Assembly: GCA_050119415.1 (NCBI GenBank)
Contig: JASFJY010000001.1
Span: 1 to 34,177 of the forward strand
Source of the DNA: Chromatiales bacterium
GTDB lineage: Bacteria > Pseudomonadota > Gammaproteobacteria > Chromatiales > Chromatiaceae
DNA length: 34,177 nt
Direction: 5' to 3'
Shown: one piece after another, positions 28,243 through 34,177 of the stretch
Position numbering within the stretch: position 1 is the first letter of the stretch
How the letters are laid out: every line of letters begins with the position of its first letter
Translations under genes and position numbers: made by a program
The notes under the pieces: model-generated
Seen by the model: only the letters and a program-made list of their open reading frames with translations
Databases searched by the model: none
Told to the model about the DNA's origin: nothing

Positions 28243-29106
28243 ATGGCCGACTCATCCTTCATCTACGATGTCACAGTGGAGAACTTCCAGCAGGTGGTGC
28301 TGCAGACCTCCATGAGCCGACCGGTGCTGGTCGACTTCTGGGCCGAGTGGTGCAATCCCTGCAAGGCGTTGATGCCGACCCTGGCCAAGCTGGCCGACGA
28401 GTATCAGGGCAAATTCATCCTGGCCAAGGTCAACACCGAGGAGCAGCAGCAGCTGGCCGCCCATTTCGGCATCCGCAGCATCCCCTGCGTGAAACTCTTT
28501 TTAAAGGGTGAGATGGCGGATGAGTTCATGGGCGCCCTGCCGGAGGCCGAGGTACGCAGCTTTATCGATAAATATATTCCGCGGCAGTCGGACGCCATCC
28601 TGGCCGAAGCGGAGCAGCGCTTGCTTCAGGGAGACGCGGACGGCGCCGGCGCCCTGATCCAGCAGGCGGCGCAGATGGACCCGGCCAGCCCCCGGGTCAT
28701 GCTGAGCAACGCCCGTTACCTGGCCACCGTCGGCCGCCTGGAGGAGGCGGAACAACAGATCAACGCCCTGCCGGACGAGGAGAAGAACAATCCAGAAGTC
28801 GCCGCCATGCTGGCGCGTATGCAGTTTGACCGCTCGTCGGCAGGCACACCGCCCCTTGAAGCGCTCGAGCAACGTCTGCAGGCCAATCCGGCCGACAGCG
28901 AGGCCCTGCACCAGCTAGCCTCCCATAAGATCATGCAGAACGATTTGGAAGGTGCCCTGGAACTGCTGTTGACCCTGATGCAGAAAGACCGGGACTATGG
29001 CGACGATGTGGCGCGTAAGGACATGCTGAGGATTTTCGATATGCTGGGCGGCCAGGGTGACCTGGTAAAGCGCTATCGCAACCGGATGTTCAACATCCTG
29101 CACTGA
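28243..29106 (+). CDS. cnoX: thioredoxin-TPR chaperedoxin CnoX (YbbN)
   Basis: PVLVDFWAEWCNPCK thioredoxin domain, TPR-like helical region and C-terminal RYRNRMFNILH. Start MADSS follows AGGAG. Confidence 0.92.
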   Translation: MADSSFIYDVTVENFQQVVLQTSMSRPVLVDFWAEWCNPCKALMPTLAKLADEYQGKFILAKVNTEEQQQLAAHFGIRSIPCVKLFLKGEMADEFMGALPEAEVRSFIDKYIPRQSDAILAEAEQRLLQGDADGAGALIQQAAQMDPASPRVMLSNARYLATVGRLEEAEQQINALPDEEKNNPEVAAMLARMQFDRSSAGTPPLEALEQRLQANPADSEALHQLASHKIMQNDLEGALELLLTLMQKDRDYGDDVARKDMLRIFDMLGGQGDLVKRYRNRMFNILH

Positions 29107-29125
29107 TTCCTCCCGTTGCCCACCG

Positions 29126-29155
29126 AAAAAAAACCCTCCGCATGGGGCGGAGGGT
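29126..29155 (-). terminator. intrinsic terminator for a minus-strand transcript
   Basis: ACCCTCCGC-5 nt-GCGGAGGGT stem with A8 on the plus-strand left side, which is a U8 tail on the minus strand. Confidence 0.85.
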
Positions 29156-29272
29156 ATAAAAAATGGAGGAATTAGCTTTACAACGATGGCTTGCTTCATG
29201 ACCCTAAGCTTGCCAAACACTGACTTGGCTTCGACATCTTCTGTCGAAACGCCAGGGATCATTCGCCAACGG
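29126..29272 (-). ncRNA. candidate sRNA of about 145 nt (or structured 3' UTR of crp)
   Basis: Candidate -10 box TAACAT (29278-29283), nested hairpins, single-stranded AUUCCUCCAU anti-SD motif, then a U8 terminator. No family recognised. Confidence 0.45.
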
Positions 29273-29304
29273 GCTTTATGTTAAGGGGTGGAAATAGGGA
29301 CGTC

Positions 29305-29319
29305 TGTGAAATATTCACA
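29305..29319. promoter_or_regulatory. Crp-like palindrome TGTGA-N5-TCACA
   Basis: TGTGAAATATTCACA has perfect CRP half-sites, but the spacer is 5 nt rather than the canonical 6. Confidence 0.45.
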
Positions 29320-29376
29320 CCTGGAGTGTGACCGGATCGATTGCCTGGCGTTGTTGCCGTGAGTGAATCCTATTCA

Positions 29377-30021
29377 CTAATAACGCTTGGGCAACGCCTT
29401 GTGGATGATGGTCTGTTTCTGACCGGTAGTCAAATAACCGCCTTTGACCAAATCCTTGAAAATGCGACATACCATCTCACGGGATGCGCCGATACGGTTG
29501 GCCAGCTCCTGCTGGGTGAAGGGCTCTTCGATCACCCATTCGTCGCCACGTTTAACCGCCATACTCAGTAGCGCCTTGCTCAGCCGCCCGTAGACATCAG
29601 ACAAGGCTAGGCTCTTGACCTCCTCGGTCAGGGCCCTGATACGATGCACCAGATCCTTCAACAAATGGATGGCGATATCGGGATTTTCCTTCATGATCTG
29701 GTGAAAGGCCTGCTTGGTGATCGCGGCCAGGGTGCTCTTTTCCACCGTCATGATCGAAGCCGAACGGGTCGAGTCGTCGATGAGCGAGAGTTCGCCGAAG
29801 TATTCACCCGCCTCCTGATAGTTGATGATGGCCTCTTTGCCGTTTTCATCATTGAGAAAGACCTTCACCTTGCCGCTGAGTATCAGGTAGAGCGAGTCGC
29901 TGCTGTCCCCTTCGGAAAGAACGATGGTGTTTTTCGGAAAACTCCGTTTAACCACGCGCTGTTCAATCAGCGCGCGATCGGCGGGAGCCATACCAGCGAA
30001 TATGGATATGTTCTCAATCAT
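29377..30021 (-). CDS. Crp/Fnr family transcriptional regulator (cNMP-binding, CRP-like)
   Basis: cNMP cassette GEYFGELSL...TRSAS, hinge LALSDVYGRL and HTH TQQELANRIGASREMVCR; no Fnr Cys cluster. Start MIENI (214 aa) preferred over 30108. Confidence 0.93.
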   Translation of the reverse strand: MIENISIFAGMAPADRALIEQRVVKRSFPKNTIVLSEGDSSDSLYLILSGKVKVFLNDENGKEAIINYQEAGEYFGELSLIDDSTRSASIMTVEKSTLAAITKQAFHQIMKENPDIAIHLLKDLVHRIRALTEEVKSLALSDVYGRLSKALLSMAVKRGDEWVIEEPFTQQELANRIGASREMVCRIFKDLVKGGYLTTGQKQTIIHKALPKRY

Positions 30022-30131
30022 ATATTGATTATATACACTCGCTGAAATGTGTCCCATTATATTGACCGCCGACATGCGGCAGTCGGTCACCCGCAGCGGG
30101 AACGCCAAGGGATCTGCGCCGAAACGAGAGG

Positions 30132-32285
30132 ATGATAAGGAACATACAGTTGCGTCTGACCTCCCTGTGGCTCGGTCTGATGATCGGTCTCCTGGGCGCC
30201 CTGCTCGGTCTACTCCCCCTCACCGCGGATTGGGAGGAAGGAGTCGGCCTGGGGCTCCTGTTTAAGCTGCGCGGTCAATTGCCGGCACCGAAAGATGTGG
30301 TGATCGTCTCCATCAATGGCGAGACCGCGGCCCAGCTCGGACTCGGCGAGGAGATCCCCCAATGGCCCCGCACCCTGCACGCCGAGTTGATCGACCTTCT
30401 GCGCCAGGCAGGGGTTGCCGTCATTGCGATCGATATATTTTTCAAAAAACCCCGTAACCCGAAAAAGGATGCGCTCCTGGCGGCGTCCATCGCACGCGCC
30501 GGCAATGTCCTGTTGGTGGGCTATTTGAATCAAGAACGTATCATATCGGGCAGGCAGATCCTACATGTCGAGCGCCTTATACCCCCCATTAAATCCCTCT
30601 CCGATGCGGCCGCCGGCGTCGCCCCCTTCGTACTGCCCAAGATACCGGTGAGGGTCAGCCGCTTTTGGAGCTTCAACAATGAAAACACCCTCCCTTCACT
30701 GCCGGTGATGGCGCTGTACCAGTTGGCCGATCCGGATGGCAGTCGAATGGAAACATTGCTGCGGGTAATATCCGGGAACGGCCCTCATGCCAATAAACAG
30801 AAAGACCGTATTTCCCTGATACAAGCATTGCGCGGCAATCGGGCATTGCGCGAAAAACTGTCAGCGGCCCTGCCATACATCGATCACACACCCGCTGAAA
30901 GAAAGCGACTGCAGGCACTGTTGGCGTTGTGCGGCGGCGAGGCCTATCCCTATCTCAATTTCTACGGTCCGCCCTCGACCCTGACAAACATTCCCTACCA
31001 GAGACTGCTCAAGGGCGATAGCGATCTGCTGAACAGTCTCAGGGGCAAAGCGGTCTTCATCGGCTATGCCGGAGATTACCAGCCCAGACAGCGGGACGGT
31101 TTTTATACCATCTTCACGCAGAAGAGCGGGCTCGACCTCAGTGGCGTGGAGATTGCGGCTACTGCTTTCGCCAATCTGCTGCACAACGAAACGATTACCC
31201 CGCTTGGCCCATCAGGCCTCGCAATCCTGCTCCTGGCCTACGGCCTGGCGGTTACCCTACTGCTGCGTTTCCTGCCCGGCAGCGGCGGTGTCGCCGCCAC
31301 CCTGTTGTTGGCCGTGGCCTACCTGGGCCTGACCTATGGGCTGTTCACATATCATCAGATCTGGCTGCCCTGGTTCATCCCCCTGGGGTTGCAGACTCCA
31401 TTGGCCATGATTCTGGTGCTGACCTGGCACTATCGCCAGATGCGCCACAGCCGGGAACAGCTGCGGGAGCTCTTCGGCTACTACCTGCCCGGTGAGGTAA
31501 TCGACCGGCTAGCCGAAGACAAAGAGCAAGCCATGGAGCACAGTGACAAGGCCTTCGGCGTCTGTCTGGCTACCGATGCGCGACGTTACACCAGCCTGGC
31601 GGAGCGCATGGACCCCGAAGCCCTACAGGCCTTTCTCAATCGCTACTACGAGATCCTCTTCGCCCCGGTGCGCTCCCGGGGGGGGGTGGTCTCCGATGTG
31701 ATCGGCGACGCCATGCTGGCGATCTGGCCCGCCGCCCGCCCCGATCCCGCGCTCAGGCAGAAAGCCTGCGAAGCGGCGCTCGAGATTACCCGCGCCCTGC
31801 AATCATCAGATCTCGATCCCCCCCTGCCCACGGGTATCGGACTGCACGCCGGGGAGCTGGTGATGAGCCATGTCGGTGCCATCGACCACTTCGAATACCG
31901 GGCGGTGGGCGATATGGTCAACACCGCCAGTCGCATCGAGGCGCTGAACAAGATGCTGTGCACCCGCATCCTCGCTTCGGAGGATATGCTGCGCGGTGTG
32001 CGGGGCATACTCACCCGCGAACTCGGCGCCTTTCGGATAACCGGCCGGACTCAGACCATCAACCTGCACGAAATCGCCGCGCTCGAGGGCGAAGCCACAC
32101 CCGAGTTGCGGGAGCTGCACCGGGCGTTTGCCGAGGCGCTTGCCGAATGGGAAGAGGGAAACCGAGAACAGGCACTCAGCCACTTCGAAGCACTGCGTCA
32201 GCGCTATCCCGACGACGGACCCACCGCCTACTACATCCAGCAGTATCACGAACGCCGCGGCAACCGCATCAACCCGCTCAGTTAG
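30132..32285 (+). CDS. CHASE2-domain class III nucleotide (adenylate/guanylate-type) cyclase
   Basis: N-terminal TM, CHASE2 motifs (VVIVSI, WPRTLHAELI, IAIDIFF, SGVEIAATAFANLL), three TMs, cyclase domain (ATDARRYT, IGDAML, GIGLHAG, GDMVNTASR) and a C-terminal TPR-like helix pair. Confidence 0.93.
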   Translation: MIRNIQLRLTSLWLGLMIGLLGALLGLLPLTADWEEGVGLGLLFKLRGQLPAPKDVVIVSINGETAAQLGLGEEIPQWPRTLHAELIDLLRQAGVAVIAIDIFFKKPRNPKKDALLAASIARAGNVLLVGYLNQERIISGRQILHVERLIPPIKSLSDAAAGVAPFVLPKIPVRVSRFWSFNNENTLPSLPVMALYQLADPDGSRMETLLRVISGNGPHANKQKDRISLIQALRGNRALREKLSAALPYIDHTPAERKRLQALLALCGGEAYPYLNFYGPPSTLTNIPYQRLLKGDSDLLNSLRGKAVFIGYAGDYQPRQRDGFYTIFTQKSGLDLSGVEIAATAFANLLHNETITPLGPSGLAILLLAYGLAVTLLLRFLPGSGGVAATLLLAVAYLGLTYGLFTYHQIWLPWFIPLGLQTPLAMILVLTWHYRQMRHSREQLRELFGYYLPGEVIDRLAEDKEQAMEHSDKAFGVCLATDARRYTSLAERMDPEALQAFLNRYYEILFAPVRSRGGVVSDVIGDAMLAIWPAARPDPALRQKACEAALEITRALQSSDLDPPLPTGIGLHAGELVMSHVGAIDHFEYRAVGDMVNTASRIEALNKMLCTRILASEDMLRGVRGILTRELGAFRITGRTQTINLHEIAALEGEATPELRELHRAFAEALAEWEEGNREQALSHFEALRQRYPDDGPTAYYIQQYHERRGNRINPLS

Positions 32286-32462
32286 ATTCAGCAGCGCAGC
32301 CGCTGCAAAAAGAACCCACACACCAACCAAAAGACTTGTCTTCTCAAAGACTTTTGTGATACTCCTAAGTAAAAGGGTAGGAAATAACGCCGGGAGGCGT
32401 TATTAAACAGGGAGAGGGGTCGGCCAGCGCCTTTACCCCCCATTGATTAGGATGACCATCAA

Positions 32463-34177
32463 ATGACGTTTGCATTACAGTTCGGCAAGTTCGCCGCTAG
32501 ATTTGCCATTGTTTGGTTTTGTTACGGATTAACGCAGACACTCTCAGCAAGTGAGTGTGAAAAACATGCCGCCAAGGCACTCTCGATCCAGGGCCAGGTG
32601 GAGATGCGCTCGGACGGCGAATCGGCCTGGATCCCCGTGCATCAGAACATGGACCTCTGCCCGGGCGACAGGCTAAGGGTTGGCGAAAAAAGCCGGGCCG
32701 GGCTAATGCTCAGCAATGACACCCTGTTGCGCCTGGCCGAGCATAGCAACATCCGCATCAGCGCACCGGCGCAGGAGGGCAGCGCCTGGCTCGAACTGAT
32801 GAGAGGTATTGCTCACTTCATCAGCCGTGTCAGACACACCTTCCAGGTCGACACCCCCTATGTCAACGCCTCCGTTGAAGGTACCGAATTCACTGTCCAG
32901 ACCAGCGAGGACGGCAGCGACGTGACCGTTCTGGAGGGACGCGTGCTTGCCGCCAACCCCCAGGGGGAGATCCTAGTCAACGGTGGCGAACGCGCCCGGG
33001 TCCTGCCCGGCAAGGCGCCCGAGGCCGAAGCCGTGGTCGATCCGCTGGATGCGGTGCAGTGGGCGCTCTACTATCCGCCGGTGATCGAGGCGCTGCCCGA
33101 GCGCCCCTCGGCGGAACTCCGCCGATCTTACGAGGCCTATGTCCGCGGCGATATCGAGGGCGCTTTTGCCGCACTGGCCCAGAGCGGTGACGTGGAGCAG
33201 GAGGCGGCACTACTGGTCTACCGTGCCTCACTCCATCTTCAAGTCGGCGCCACAGAGGCGGCGAGGCGCGATCTCGCCGCGGCCCTGCGTCTGCAGCCGG
33301 AACATCCCAATGGCCTCGCCTTGATGTCCATCATCTCCACTGTGCGCAACGAGCGCCAGCAAGCCATCGAGCTGGCGCAGAGGGCGGTTGCCGCAGATCC
33401 CCAGGCCGGTTCCCCCCTACTCGCGCTCTCCTATGCCAGACAGGCCCTATTTCAGCTGCCCGAGGCCCTGGAAGCGGCTAAAAAAGCTACTCAGGTCGCA
33501 CCGGAAAGCCACCTGGCCTGGTCCCGGTTAGCCCAGCTGCAACTGATGTTCCGCAGGCTGGACCAGGCATTGGAAGCGGCCGGACGGGCGGTGGAGATCG
33601 CACCCGACCAGCCTCAGGCCCTCACCACCCAGGGTTTCGCCCAACTCATTCGGTTCGACCTGGACGGCGCCAGACAGCGCTTCGAACAGGCCGCCGCCCT
33701 CGACCAGGCCGATCCCCTACCGCGACTCGGCCTCGGCCTGGTGGAGATACGCCAAGGCGACCTGCAAACCGGACGCCGGCAGCTTGAGACGGCCGCCAGC
33801 ATGGATCCGGGCTATGCCCTGATCCGCAGCTACCTGGGCAAGGCCTACTACGAGGAGAAGCGCAACGAGCATGCCGCCACCCAGTTCGCACTGGCCAAGC
33901 AGTTCGATGAACGCGATCCGACAGCCTGGTTCTACGACGCCATCCTCAAACAATCTGAAAATCGCCCGATAGAGGCGTTGCGCGAGCTGCAAACCTCTAT
34001 CGATCTGAACGACAACCGGGCGGTCTACCGCTCGCGTCTTCTGCTCGATCAGGATGAGGCCGCGCGTAACGCCAGCCAGGCGCGAATCTACCAGGACCTG
34101 GGTTTCGAACAACTGGCCAGGGCCGAGGCCTACAAATCCCTGCAAACCGACGCAGCCTCCCACTCCGCCCACCGCCT
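32463..34177 (+). CDS. secreted FecR-domain plus multi-TPR protein, 3' truncated by the window edge (probable outer-membrane receptor)
   Basis: Hand-translated open frame of 571 codons, absent from the ORF track. Signal-peptide-like MTFALQFGKFAARFAIVWFCYGLTQTLSA, FecR-like LCPGDRLRVGEKSRAGL...FQVDTPYVNASVEGTEF...VTVLEGRV, linker DAVQWALYYPP, several TPR units, then AVYRSRLLLDQDEAAR. Confidence 0.9.
   Translation, partial: MTFALQFGKFAARFAIVWFCYGLTQTLSASECEKHAAKALSIQGQVEMRSDGESAWIPVHQNMDLCPGDRLRVGEKSRAGLMLSNDTLLRLAEHSNIRISAPAQEGSAWLELMRGIAHFISRVRHTFQVDTPYVNASVEGTEFTVQTSEDGSDVTVLEGRVLAANPQGEILVNGGERARVLPGKAPEAEAVVDPLDAVQWALYYPPVIEALPERPSAELRRSYEAYVRGDIEGAFAALAQSGDVEQEAALLVYRASLHLQVGATEAARRDLAAALRLQPEHPNGLALMSIISTVRNERQQAIELAQRAVAADPQAGSPLLALSYARQALFQLPEALEAAKKATQVAPESHLAWSRLAQLQLMFRRLDQALEAAGRAVEIAPDQPQALTTQGFAQLIRFDLDGARQRFEQAAALDQADPLPRLGLGLVEIRQGDLQTGRRQLETAASMDPGYALIRSYLGKAYYEEKRNEHAATQFALAKQFDERDPTAWFYDAILKQSENRPIEALRELQTSIDLNDNRAVYRSRLLLDQDEAARNASQARIYQDLGFEQLARAEAYKSLQTDAASHSAHR

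What the first reader, a model, noticed from the sequence alone, without database searches (positions are those of the whole stretch)
29126..34177. Self-contained trans-envelope cyclic-nucleotide signalling module: FecR/TPR receptor, CHASE2 cyclase, Crp and a candidate sRNA output
Seen: a Crp-like regulator divergent from a membrane CHASE2 cyclase (110-bp spacer), followed by a signal-peptide/FecR/TPR protein, with a candidate sRNA and Crp-like operator just downstream of crp. Established (from memory): Sinorhizobium meliloti uses the outer-membrane protein NsrA, the CHASE2 cyclase CyaK and the Crp-like Clr to sense a host signal and limit secondary infection. Inference: this gammaproteobacterium encodes all tiers of an analogous cascade in one locus. 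It may use a nucleotide other than cAMP and act through a small RNA, a combination I do not know to have been described.
Basis: partly seen in the sequence, partly recalled or inferred. Interest (0 to 1): 0.85.

Follow-up and report, generated by a model that had tools for sequence, protein, structure and literature searches.

The report
Surface-sensing cyclase circuit, odd Crp operator
Three neighbouring genes likely pass a cue from the cell surface to a Crp regulator, as in a known rhizobial pathway, but this version probably uses a messenger other than cAMP and a DNA site one base shorter than normal, and its supposed small RNA is the leftover of a deleted protease gene.

Summary
The three genes are real. 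A Crp is divergent from a CHASE2 class III cyclase (40 of 40 genus loci), followed by a FecR/TPR protein cut by the contig end. Full-length relatives end in a 22-strand outer-membrane barrel and are homologous to the S. meliloti protein beside cyaK, taken to be NsrA. The pathway type, such gene clusters and Crp control of an sRNA are in print, and this scan has found the module on other DNA many times.

Three variant features travel together: the cyclase has Asp/Arg at the two base-selecting sites (adenylate cyclases Lys/Thr); its Crp has Leu-Thr for Thr-Ser; and a 15-bp TGTGA-N5-TCACA box, one base shorter than the CRP site, lies 21 nt before a -10 element in 27 of 29 genus copies. The genome also has an ordinary CRP, so this is likely an insulated second circuit, probably cGMP. 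The scan noted the box once before; I found it in no paper.

The 'sRNA' (29271-29126) is a deletion scar: leader plus last 18 codons and terminator of a C25 peptidase gene that is intact in relatives. A function is unproven.

The parts
29126..29155 (-). Intrinsic terminator (hairpin plus U-run) on the crp strand; the 3' end of the box-driven transcription unit
   Evidence: the same terminator ends the unit in relatives
29165..29169 (-). CCUCC anti-Shine-Dalgarno-like motif just before the terminator; possible seed, also present behind the intact peptidase gene
   Evidence: 27 of 29 units carry CCTC(C/T) here, against 6% of background windows; kin are not independent
29194..29247 (-). Decayed last 18 codons of a C25 peptidase gene
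   Evidence: profile score 34.1, reached by 0 of 500 shuffles; about two-thirds identical over 122 columns to the 3' end of the intact unit in L062
29126..29271 (-).
29278..29283 (-). -10 element TAACAT, 21 nt after the box (class II activator geometry)
   Evidence: TAnnnT at 21 nt in 27 of 29 units and at 22 nt in the other 2
29305..29319 (.). TGTGA-N5-TCACA box, predicted operator of the adjacent Crp
29327..29332 (-). Upstream GTCACA half-site, 22 bp from the proximal one; a second full N5 box in some relatives
29377..30021 (-). Crp-family regulator, 214 aa: G-E and R-S pocket kept, C-helix L131-T132, recognition helix REMVCR
30028..30033 (-). -10 element TATAAT 6 nt before the crp start codon; crp likely leaderless
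   Evidence: 29 of 40 loci; no SD motif in 40 of 40
30132..32285 (+). Inner-membrane CHASE2 class III cyclase, 717 aa: catalytic D482, D526, N597, R601; base-selecting D522 and R590; TPR-like helical tail
32463..34177 (+). 5' half of a NsrA-type receptor gene (signal peptide, FecR, TPR arm); relatives continue to about 1,140 aa with a 22-strand barrel

Best explanation
This is a NsrA/CyaK/Clr-like trans-envelope pathway in which an outer-membrane barrel likely senses an outside cue, its TPR arm and FecR domain likely switch on the neighbouring CHASE2 cyclase, and the cyclase probably makes cGMP rather than cAMP for a dedicated Crp that is predicted to activate sigma-70 promoters from a 15-bp TGTGA-N5-TCACA box. 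Shown by sequence: the domains, homology to the S. meliloti pair, co-occurrence of the genes, covariation of the cyclase and Crp residues, and box/-10 geometry. Inferred: receptor-cyclase contact, the nucleotide (my odds: cGMP 0.45, cAMP or mixed 0.3, cUMP or other 0.25), that this Crp binds the box (0.75), and that the changed messenger and spacer insulate the circuit from the genome's ordinary cAMP-CRP. The ancestral local target was an exported C25 peptidase. In this genome that gene is deleted and the promoter would now produce a 146-nt leftover RNA, which may or may not act through its CCUCC motif.
For: Receptor: 4,028 of 7,995 scored longer proteins match at E<=1e-20, the best 120 about 1,040-1,170 aa. 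P0001 (77% identical) has FecR, TPR and TonB_dep_Rec_b-barrel; its model (pLDDT 87) shows 22 strands by my count and matches TonB-dependent transporter barrels. The profile hits the 1,190-aa FecR protein directly upstream of S. meliloti cyaK at 1.7e-38 in FecR, TPR and barrel regions; the cyclase profile hits CyaK at 3.7e-53. Co-occurrence: crp-cyclase divergent in 40 of 40 genus loci, receptor next in 22 of 36 assessable; outside the genus receptor next in 38 of 40 and 23 of 29. Cyclase: D522/R590 align with the Lys/Thr sites; D and R in 119 of 120 homologues, the last unparsed at R; an acidic residue at the Lys site is the main GTP determinant (PMC7384201, PMC4215837 passages). Crp: L-T in 21 of 21 Crps beside D/R cyclases and 19 of 21 in the other set (2 A-T), against T-S/T-N in 2 of 2 near K/T cyclases; G000 has a separate T-S CRP. 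Box: 10 exact N5 against 0-2 for each other spacer (3-9) in 504 kb of non-genus loci; G000 genome-wide has 2 N5 and 12 N6.
Against: No experiment shows any step. The window's own barrel half is missing. Asp/Arg is not the canonical Glu/Cys guanylate signature, and R590 lies in a low-confidence part of the model. SYCRP1 has Leu-Asn at the same site yet binds cAMP and an N6 site (PMC10187061), so L-T is not diagnostic. N5 enrichment fades with distance: in 24 held-out loci 2 exact N5 against 0, and 13 against 4-10 with one mismatch; outside the genus only 3 of 22 N5 boxes have a -10 at 21-22 nt, against 2 of 9 N6 boxes; some first-set loci carry N6 sites at the same place. Exact N5 sites are near background genome-wide (2-6 against controls of 0-3), so the regulon is small or degenerate. 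No phosphodiesterase was noticed in this locus, though I did not search for one.
Confidence: 0.6

Rival explanations
1. An ordinary cAMP version of NsrA-CyaK-Clr: the Asp/Arg cyclase still makes cAMP, perhaps with relaxed specificity, and insulation, if any, comes only from the operator.
For: Closest structures are mostly adenylate cyclases; Ma1120 K101E keeps part of its adenylate cyclase activity at high pH (PMC4215837); Leu at the T127 site is compatible with cAMP in SYCRP1.
Against: Both adenine-selecting residues have reversed polarity, are invariant in 91 of 91 aligned rows, and change together with the Crp base-contact motif.
Confidence: 0.25
2. The cyclase makes a cyclic pyrimidine (cUMP): uracil has the same donor/acceptor pattern as guanine, and Arg could fill the pocket.
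For: Asp and Arg are named among the UTP-selecting residues of BcPycC (PMC11224242).
Against: AnPycC and EaPycC put an aromatic residue two before the first catalytic Asp and Lys/Gln two before the second; here these are Ala480 and Ile524. The Crp has Thr, not the Asn that reads cUMP at the S128 site.
Confidence: 0.12
3. The N5 box belongs to another regulator and the adjacent Crp binds elsewhere.
For: The review describes GT-N10-AC as the conserved core of CRP sites; 13 of 29 class-wide D/R loci have an N5 box with up to one mismatch, so most lack one.
Against: The half-site is what an R-E-x-x-x-R helix reads; the proximal half-site sits at the class II position; boxes recur beside crp, between cyclase and receptor, and after the receptor in unrelated families; no other regulator was seen to recur in the loci listed.
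Confidence: 0.2
4. The 146-nt RNA is a selected regulatory sRNA: a 3'-UTR-derived RNA with a CCUCC seed that outlived its host gene several times.
For: Seed in 27 of 29 units; short forms need at least 6 changes on the cyclase tree (quick tree); G012 keeps a short form beside crp although an intact peptidase unit lies elsewhere; Clr drives an sRNA in S. meliloti.
Against: Length varies (about 95-220 nt) and only the last 45 nt are shared across clades; the body here is decayed coding sequence; the unit is wholly absent in 4 ybbN-syntenic relatives; CCUCC also resembles the 5' arm of the terminator and could be an alternative pairing.
Confidence: 0.25

Closest known systems
Sinorhizobium meliloti NsrA - CyaK (CyaD1/D2) - Clr (PMC7529298, PMC13001267, PMC10127613, PMC5498481: passages read; the NsrA paper PMC5952392 and PMC3340038 are not held)
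   Same: Outer-membrane FecR-TPR-barrel protein of about 1,150-1,190 aa next to a CHASE2 class III cyclase, with a Crp-family output; homology shown; acidic barrel half in both; Clr also drives an sRNA, exported proteins and polysaccharide genes.
   Different: CyaK has Lys/Ser at the base sites, this cyclase Asp/Arg. Clr has T-T and helix RPKVNR with a 16-bp site; this Crp has L-T and REMVCR with a predicted 15-bp site. Gene order is cyclase then receptor, with crp adjacent. That the L047 FecR protein is NsrA is my inference from size and position; the record does not name it.
Campylobacterota cluster of CHASE2 adenylate cyclase, phosphodiesterase, FecR-domain outer-membrane protein and TPR protein (PMC9239204, passages)
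   Same: Same domains clustered, proposed as one pathway.
   Different: Includes a phosphodiesterase; Crp is not listed in that cluster; computational only.
Rhodospirillum centenum CgrA cGMP system (PMC10187061, passages)
   Same: Crp activated by cGMP from a linked cyclase gene cluster.
   Different: CgrA keeps the CAP signatures apart from RT and has an N6 site; no outer-membrane receptor is mentioned in the passages read.
E. coli CAP/CRP class II promoters
   Same: TGTGA half-sites, R-E-x-x-x-R helix, proximal half-site 21 nt before the -10 element (class II spacing recalled).
   Different: 5-bp instead of 6-bp spacer; L-T instead of T-S.
FecI-FecR-FecA cell-surface signalling and the Burkholderia LysM-FecR / CHASE2 kinase operon (PMC5192318, passages)
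   Same: FecR domain paired with a TonB-type barrel or with a CHASE2 sensor.
   Different: Here FecR is fused to the barrel through a TPR arm, and the output is a cyclase and Crp, not a sigma factor or kinase.

Membership tests
NsrA-CyaK-Clr pathway | Outer-membrane FecR-TPR-beta-barrel receptor homologous to NsrA | tested here: met
   Met for full-length relatives and the window's N-terminal half; the window's own barrel half lies beyond the contig; NsrA identity of L047:2823-6395 is inferred
NsrA-CyaK-Clr pathway | Inner-membrane CHASE2 class III cyclase with intact catalytic residues | tested here: met
NsrA-CyaK-Clr pathway | Adenine-selecting residues (Lys plus Thr/Ser/Asp), as in CyaK | tested here: not met
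   D522 and R590
NsrA-CyaK-Clr pathway | Clr-type regulator (T-T motif, RPKVNR helix, HGTYHC-N4-GRWACA site) | tested here: not met
   L-T, REMVCR, N5 box; weak match to the Clr structure, 7e-17 against 4e-28 for the best hit
NsrA-CyaK-Clr pathway | Cyclase activation needs the receptor and an outside (host) protein signal | not testable with these tools
   needs genetics
Canonical CAP/CRP | Phosphate-binding G-E and R-S residues and R-E-x-x-x-R helix | tested here: met
Canonical CAP/CRP | T-S base-contact motif and TGTGA-N6-TCACA site | tested here: not met
   L-T; 0 exact N6 and 19 exact N5 in 380 kb of genus loci
Class III guanylate cyclases | Glu plus Cys/Ser/Gly at the base sites | tested here: inconclusive
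   Acidic Asp at the Glu site, Arg at the less conserved second site
Pycsar PycC pyrimidine cyclases | Aromatic two before the first Asp, Lys/Gln two before the second (AnPycC, EaPycC); PycTM/PycTIR partner | tested here: not met
   Ala480, Ile524, and a Crp partner; BcPycC positions could not be mapped from the passages
TonB-dependent transporters | Plug domain before the barrel | tested here: not met
   No Plug hit; only about 40 residues between the last TPR helix and strand 1 in the model
Known sRNA families | Rfam match at gathering score; conserved length and body | tested here: not met

The most novel reading that the evidence does not exclude
A widespread gammaproteobacterial subfamily (close cyclase matches in 38 of 401 sampled genomes) runs a fully orthogonal second CRP channel: an outer-membrane receptor activates an Asp/Arg cyclase that makes cGMP or cUMP, read by a Leu-Thr Crp that binds half-sites one base pair closer than any CRP in the papers I saw. 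In the Thiodiazotropha group, which includes clam-gill symbionts, it senses a host protein as NsrA does in nodules and acts through exported proteins, polysaccharide genes and a 3'-derived anti-SD RNA.
Probability: 0.3. Interest if true: 0.8.

Novelty: new variant of a known kind. Interest (0 to 1): 0.5.

Why it matters
The architecture is known but has been studied in one rhizobium. This variant offers three cheap tests with general answers: a new base-selection code in class III cyclases (Asp/Arg), a CRP dimer predicted to read a 15-bp odd-symmetry site, and a way for one cell to run two CRP circuits without crosstalk. Bacterial cGMP signalling has few worked examples. The cyclase is kept in 23 of 24 genus genomes, a group that includes marine animal symbionts, and one search found no paper holding both 'Thiodiazotropha' and 'cyclase'. 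The short RNA is a clean natural series (intact gene, partial remnant, bare scar) for asking how 3'-derived sRNAs arise.

Tried and rejected
FecR-CHASE2 complex prediction gave 'no answer'; it is not used either way.

RNA: three metatranscriptome runs hold contigs at least 99% alike to the window; pieces cover 28919-29425 (X1) and 28980-29256 (X3). They are unstranded contigs that also span ybbN and crp ends, so they cannot show a discrete sRNA; the lack of cover on the cyclase proves nothing.

Rfam near-misses (Hrs13, GcvB) rejected as terminator matches. The 115-aa ORF 29262-28915 rejected as a gene: it runs through the terminator into ybbN, and its start holds the peptidase remnant. The idea that Asp/Arg equals the PycC uridylate signature was dropped after comparing positions. 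The AT-rich-spacer filter (9 against 0-4) was chosen after seeing the data and is not counted as evidence. No exact N5 box lies upstream of the two receptor paralogues in G000 (a degenerate copy precedes the C433 gene); the only other exact N5 site precedes a DUF6627 gene. The missing receptor half and a C25 gene were not found in G000 (81% complete).

Literature: no paper with the N5 motif strings (five spellings), none relevant by title or abstract start among 14, none for 'smb20775'. Subscription papers, including the NsrA paper, are outside the library, and I read supplements only for PMC7529298 (passages). The tree is the quick version, midpoint-rooted; 39 rows, leaving out L068 and L077, which lack a usable cyclase.
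Full report
Observation. The window is the whole contig G000:C1. It holds a 214-aa Crp (29377-30021, -), a 717-aa CHASE2/class III cyclase (30132-32285, +) 110 bp away, and a FecR/TPR gene from 32463 that runs off the end at 571 aa. The rest of the window is housekeeping: nuo, secG, tpiA, glmM, folP, ftsH, rlmE, greA, carAB, trxC, ybbN. Named close hits are Candidatus Thiodiazotropha and Sedimenticolaceae.

Receptor. Longer homologues are about 1,040-1,170 aa and 47-77% identical over the window's part; 74 of 120 end in Phe. P0001 has FecR, TPR and a TonB-receptor barrel but no plug. Its model (pLDDT 87) shows FecR strands, a long TPR arm and, by my count, 22 barrel strands, and matches TonB-dependent transporters. 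In S. meliloti pSymB a 1,190-aa FecR protein lies directly upstream of cyaK. It aligns with P0001 at 2e-17 and with the family profile at 1.7e-38, in FecR, TPR and barrel regions. I take it to be NsrA from its size and place: PMC7529298 gives the NsrA barrel as residues 600-1200, and the NsrA paper itself is not held. G000 has two more partial paralogues, 64-66% identical.

Co-conservation. The full cyclase is in 23 of 24 genus genomes, the crp in 42 of 45, the receptor family in 44 of 45. crp and cyclase are divergent in 40 of 40 genus loci, the window included. The receptor follows in 22 of 36 assessable loci, 4 being cut by contig ends. The 14 without it form one clade and all have a receptor gene elsewhere. 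Among 40 non-genus loci of the 80 returned, the receptor follows in 38 and a Crp of at least 40% identity is present in 21. In an even draw across the class, 38 of 401 genomes match the catalytic domain at 1e-40. I fetched 30 of the 36 outside the genus: 29 are Asp/Arg type, 23 of these have the receptor, 21 a Crp, 19 all three; five repeat contigs.

Nucleotide. Catalytic D482, D526, N597 and R601 are kept. The two base-selecting sites, Lys and Thr/Ser/Asp in adenylate cyclases and in CyaK, are D522 and R590, found in 119 of 120 homologues with one unparsed. In guanylate cyclases an acidic residue at the first site is the main determinant and the second varies (PMC7384201); Lys-to-Glu cuts adenylate and raises guanylate activity in Ma1120 (PMC4215837). 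Asp as acceptor and Arg as donor fit guanine, and also uracil; the PycC positions given in PMC11224242 do not match. The partner Crp changes in step: Leu-Thr in place of Thr-Ser in 21 of 21 and 19 of 21 cases, against T-S or T-N in the 2 Crps near Lys/Thr cyclases. Caution: SYCRP1 has Leu-Asn and still binds cAMP. cGMP is my best guess, not a result.

Operator. The element at 29305-29319 is TGTGA-N5-TCACA. It is the part of the intergenic DNA most often matched across the genus. A TAnnnT hexamer follows at 21 nt in 27 of 29 units and at 22 nt in 2, with the spacer sequence free; that is the place of the proximal half-site in class II CRP promoters (spacing recalled). A second half-site or full box lies 22 bp upstream. 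Genus loci hold 19 exact N5 and no exact N6 sites; non-genus loci 10 exact N5 against 0-2 for other spacers; G000 as a whole 2 N5 and 12 N6, and it encodes a separate T-S CRP. Further boxes lie near a sugar-transferase gene and before receptor genes, exported proteins, a diguanylate cyclase and an ECF sigma factor in different genomes. Against: in 24 held-out distant loci the excess is small (2 exact against 0; 13 against 4-10 with one mismatch), -10 spacing is not kept outside the genus (3 of 22), and some loci carry N6 sites there. A 2023 review gives GT-N10-AC as the conserved CRP core; I found no N5 CRP site in print.

The 'sRNA'. In 9 of the 29 box-to-terminator units a 709-715-aa exported C25 peptidase gene fills the space. 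Others hold partial remnants (2), a 52-57-aa ORF (4), or 95-220 nt (14). The window's 146 nt are about 27 nt of that gene's leader, then its last 18 codons (0 of 500 shuffles score as high), then its 3' UTR and terminator, aligning over 122 columns with L062. Four other short or partial units show the same remnant; the remaining 15 do not score. So the RNA is a deletion scar. The CCUCC motif before the terminator is kept in 27 of 29 units, also behind the intact gene and in a copy elsewhere in G012, so a 3'-derived regulatory RNA remains possible. But four relatives with the same ybbN neighbour have no unit at all, and the peptidase is found in only 13 of 45 genomes.

Mechanism. Likely order: a cue at the acidic barrel surface; movement through the TPR arm to the FecR domain; activation of the CHASE2 cyclase dimer; a non-cAMP cyclic nucleotide; the L-T Crp on N5 boxes; envelope and exported-protein genes. 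The receptor-to-cyclase step rests on S. meliloti genetics (PMC7529298) and on gene linkage. The cue is unknown.

Known and new. The pathway (PMC7529298, PMC13001267), clustering of these domains (PMC9239204) and a Clr-driven sRNA (PMC10127613) are in print; I read passages only. The scan reported the module on other DNA at least ten times, the missing ATP residue twice and the N5 box once. It works like NsrA-CyaK-Clr but fails the Clr and adenine-residue tests, so it is a variant, not a plain member. What this locus adds is the three-way covariation, the exact promoter geometry and the origin of the short RNA. Interest 0.5.

Noticed in passing
window 30021-30033 (-) and 39 genus loci: crp is likely leaderless: a TAnnnT -10 element ends 5-7 nt before the ATG in 29 of 40 loci and no SD motif was found in any.
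   Followed up: partly
L027:12012-12392, L030:3354-3731, L202:3684-4010, L127:12998-13381, L121:12680-13033: A small (108-135 aa) lipoprotein-like gene with no Pfam family follows the receptor gene in many genomes, even where the receptor has moved; in the window it would lie beyond the contig end.
   Followed up: partly
G000:C494 1121-3555 and G000:C433 1-1939: Two more receptor paralogues, both cut by contig ends, against one CHASE2 cyclase found: possibly several inputs to one cyclase (assembly contamination is 5%). C494 has a transposase-like gene upstream.
   Followed up: partly
L031-L038, L067, L069-L071 (downstream of the cyclase): In the clade without the receptor, a sugar-transferase gene and two unannotated genes follow the cyclase, with N5 boxes among them; in L028/L029 rml, manBC and ExeA-like genes follow (names recalled from sequence).
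   Followed up: partly
L043-L045, L073: The box-to-terminator unit holds a 52-57-aa ORF with an SD and hydrophobic start instead of the peptidase.
   Followed up: no
L210:2399-4610; L055: A second box-leader-C25 unit lies away from crp in G012 (with CCUCC and terminator) and G022, so the unit moves as a whole.
   Followed up: partly
G000:C211:5345 (L211): The only other exact N5 box in G000 lies 230 bp before an exported DUF6627 gene: a candidate target.
   Followed up: no
L183; L152, L153: Variant cyclases beside the same receptor type: Glu/His in L183 and Asn/Arg in two deltaproteobacterial loci.
   Followed up: no
window 32100-32260 (cyclase residues 657-710): The cyclase ends in a three-helix TPR-like tail (weak TPR_14; helices); role unknown.
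   Followed up: no
window 29363-29379: An AT-rich 7-bp hairpin overlaps the crp stop codon; not seen in relatives.
   Followed up: partly
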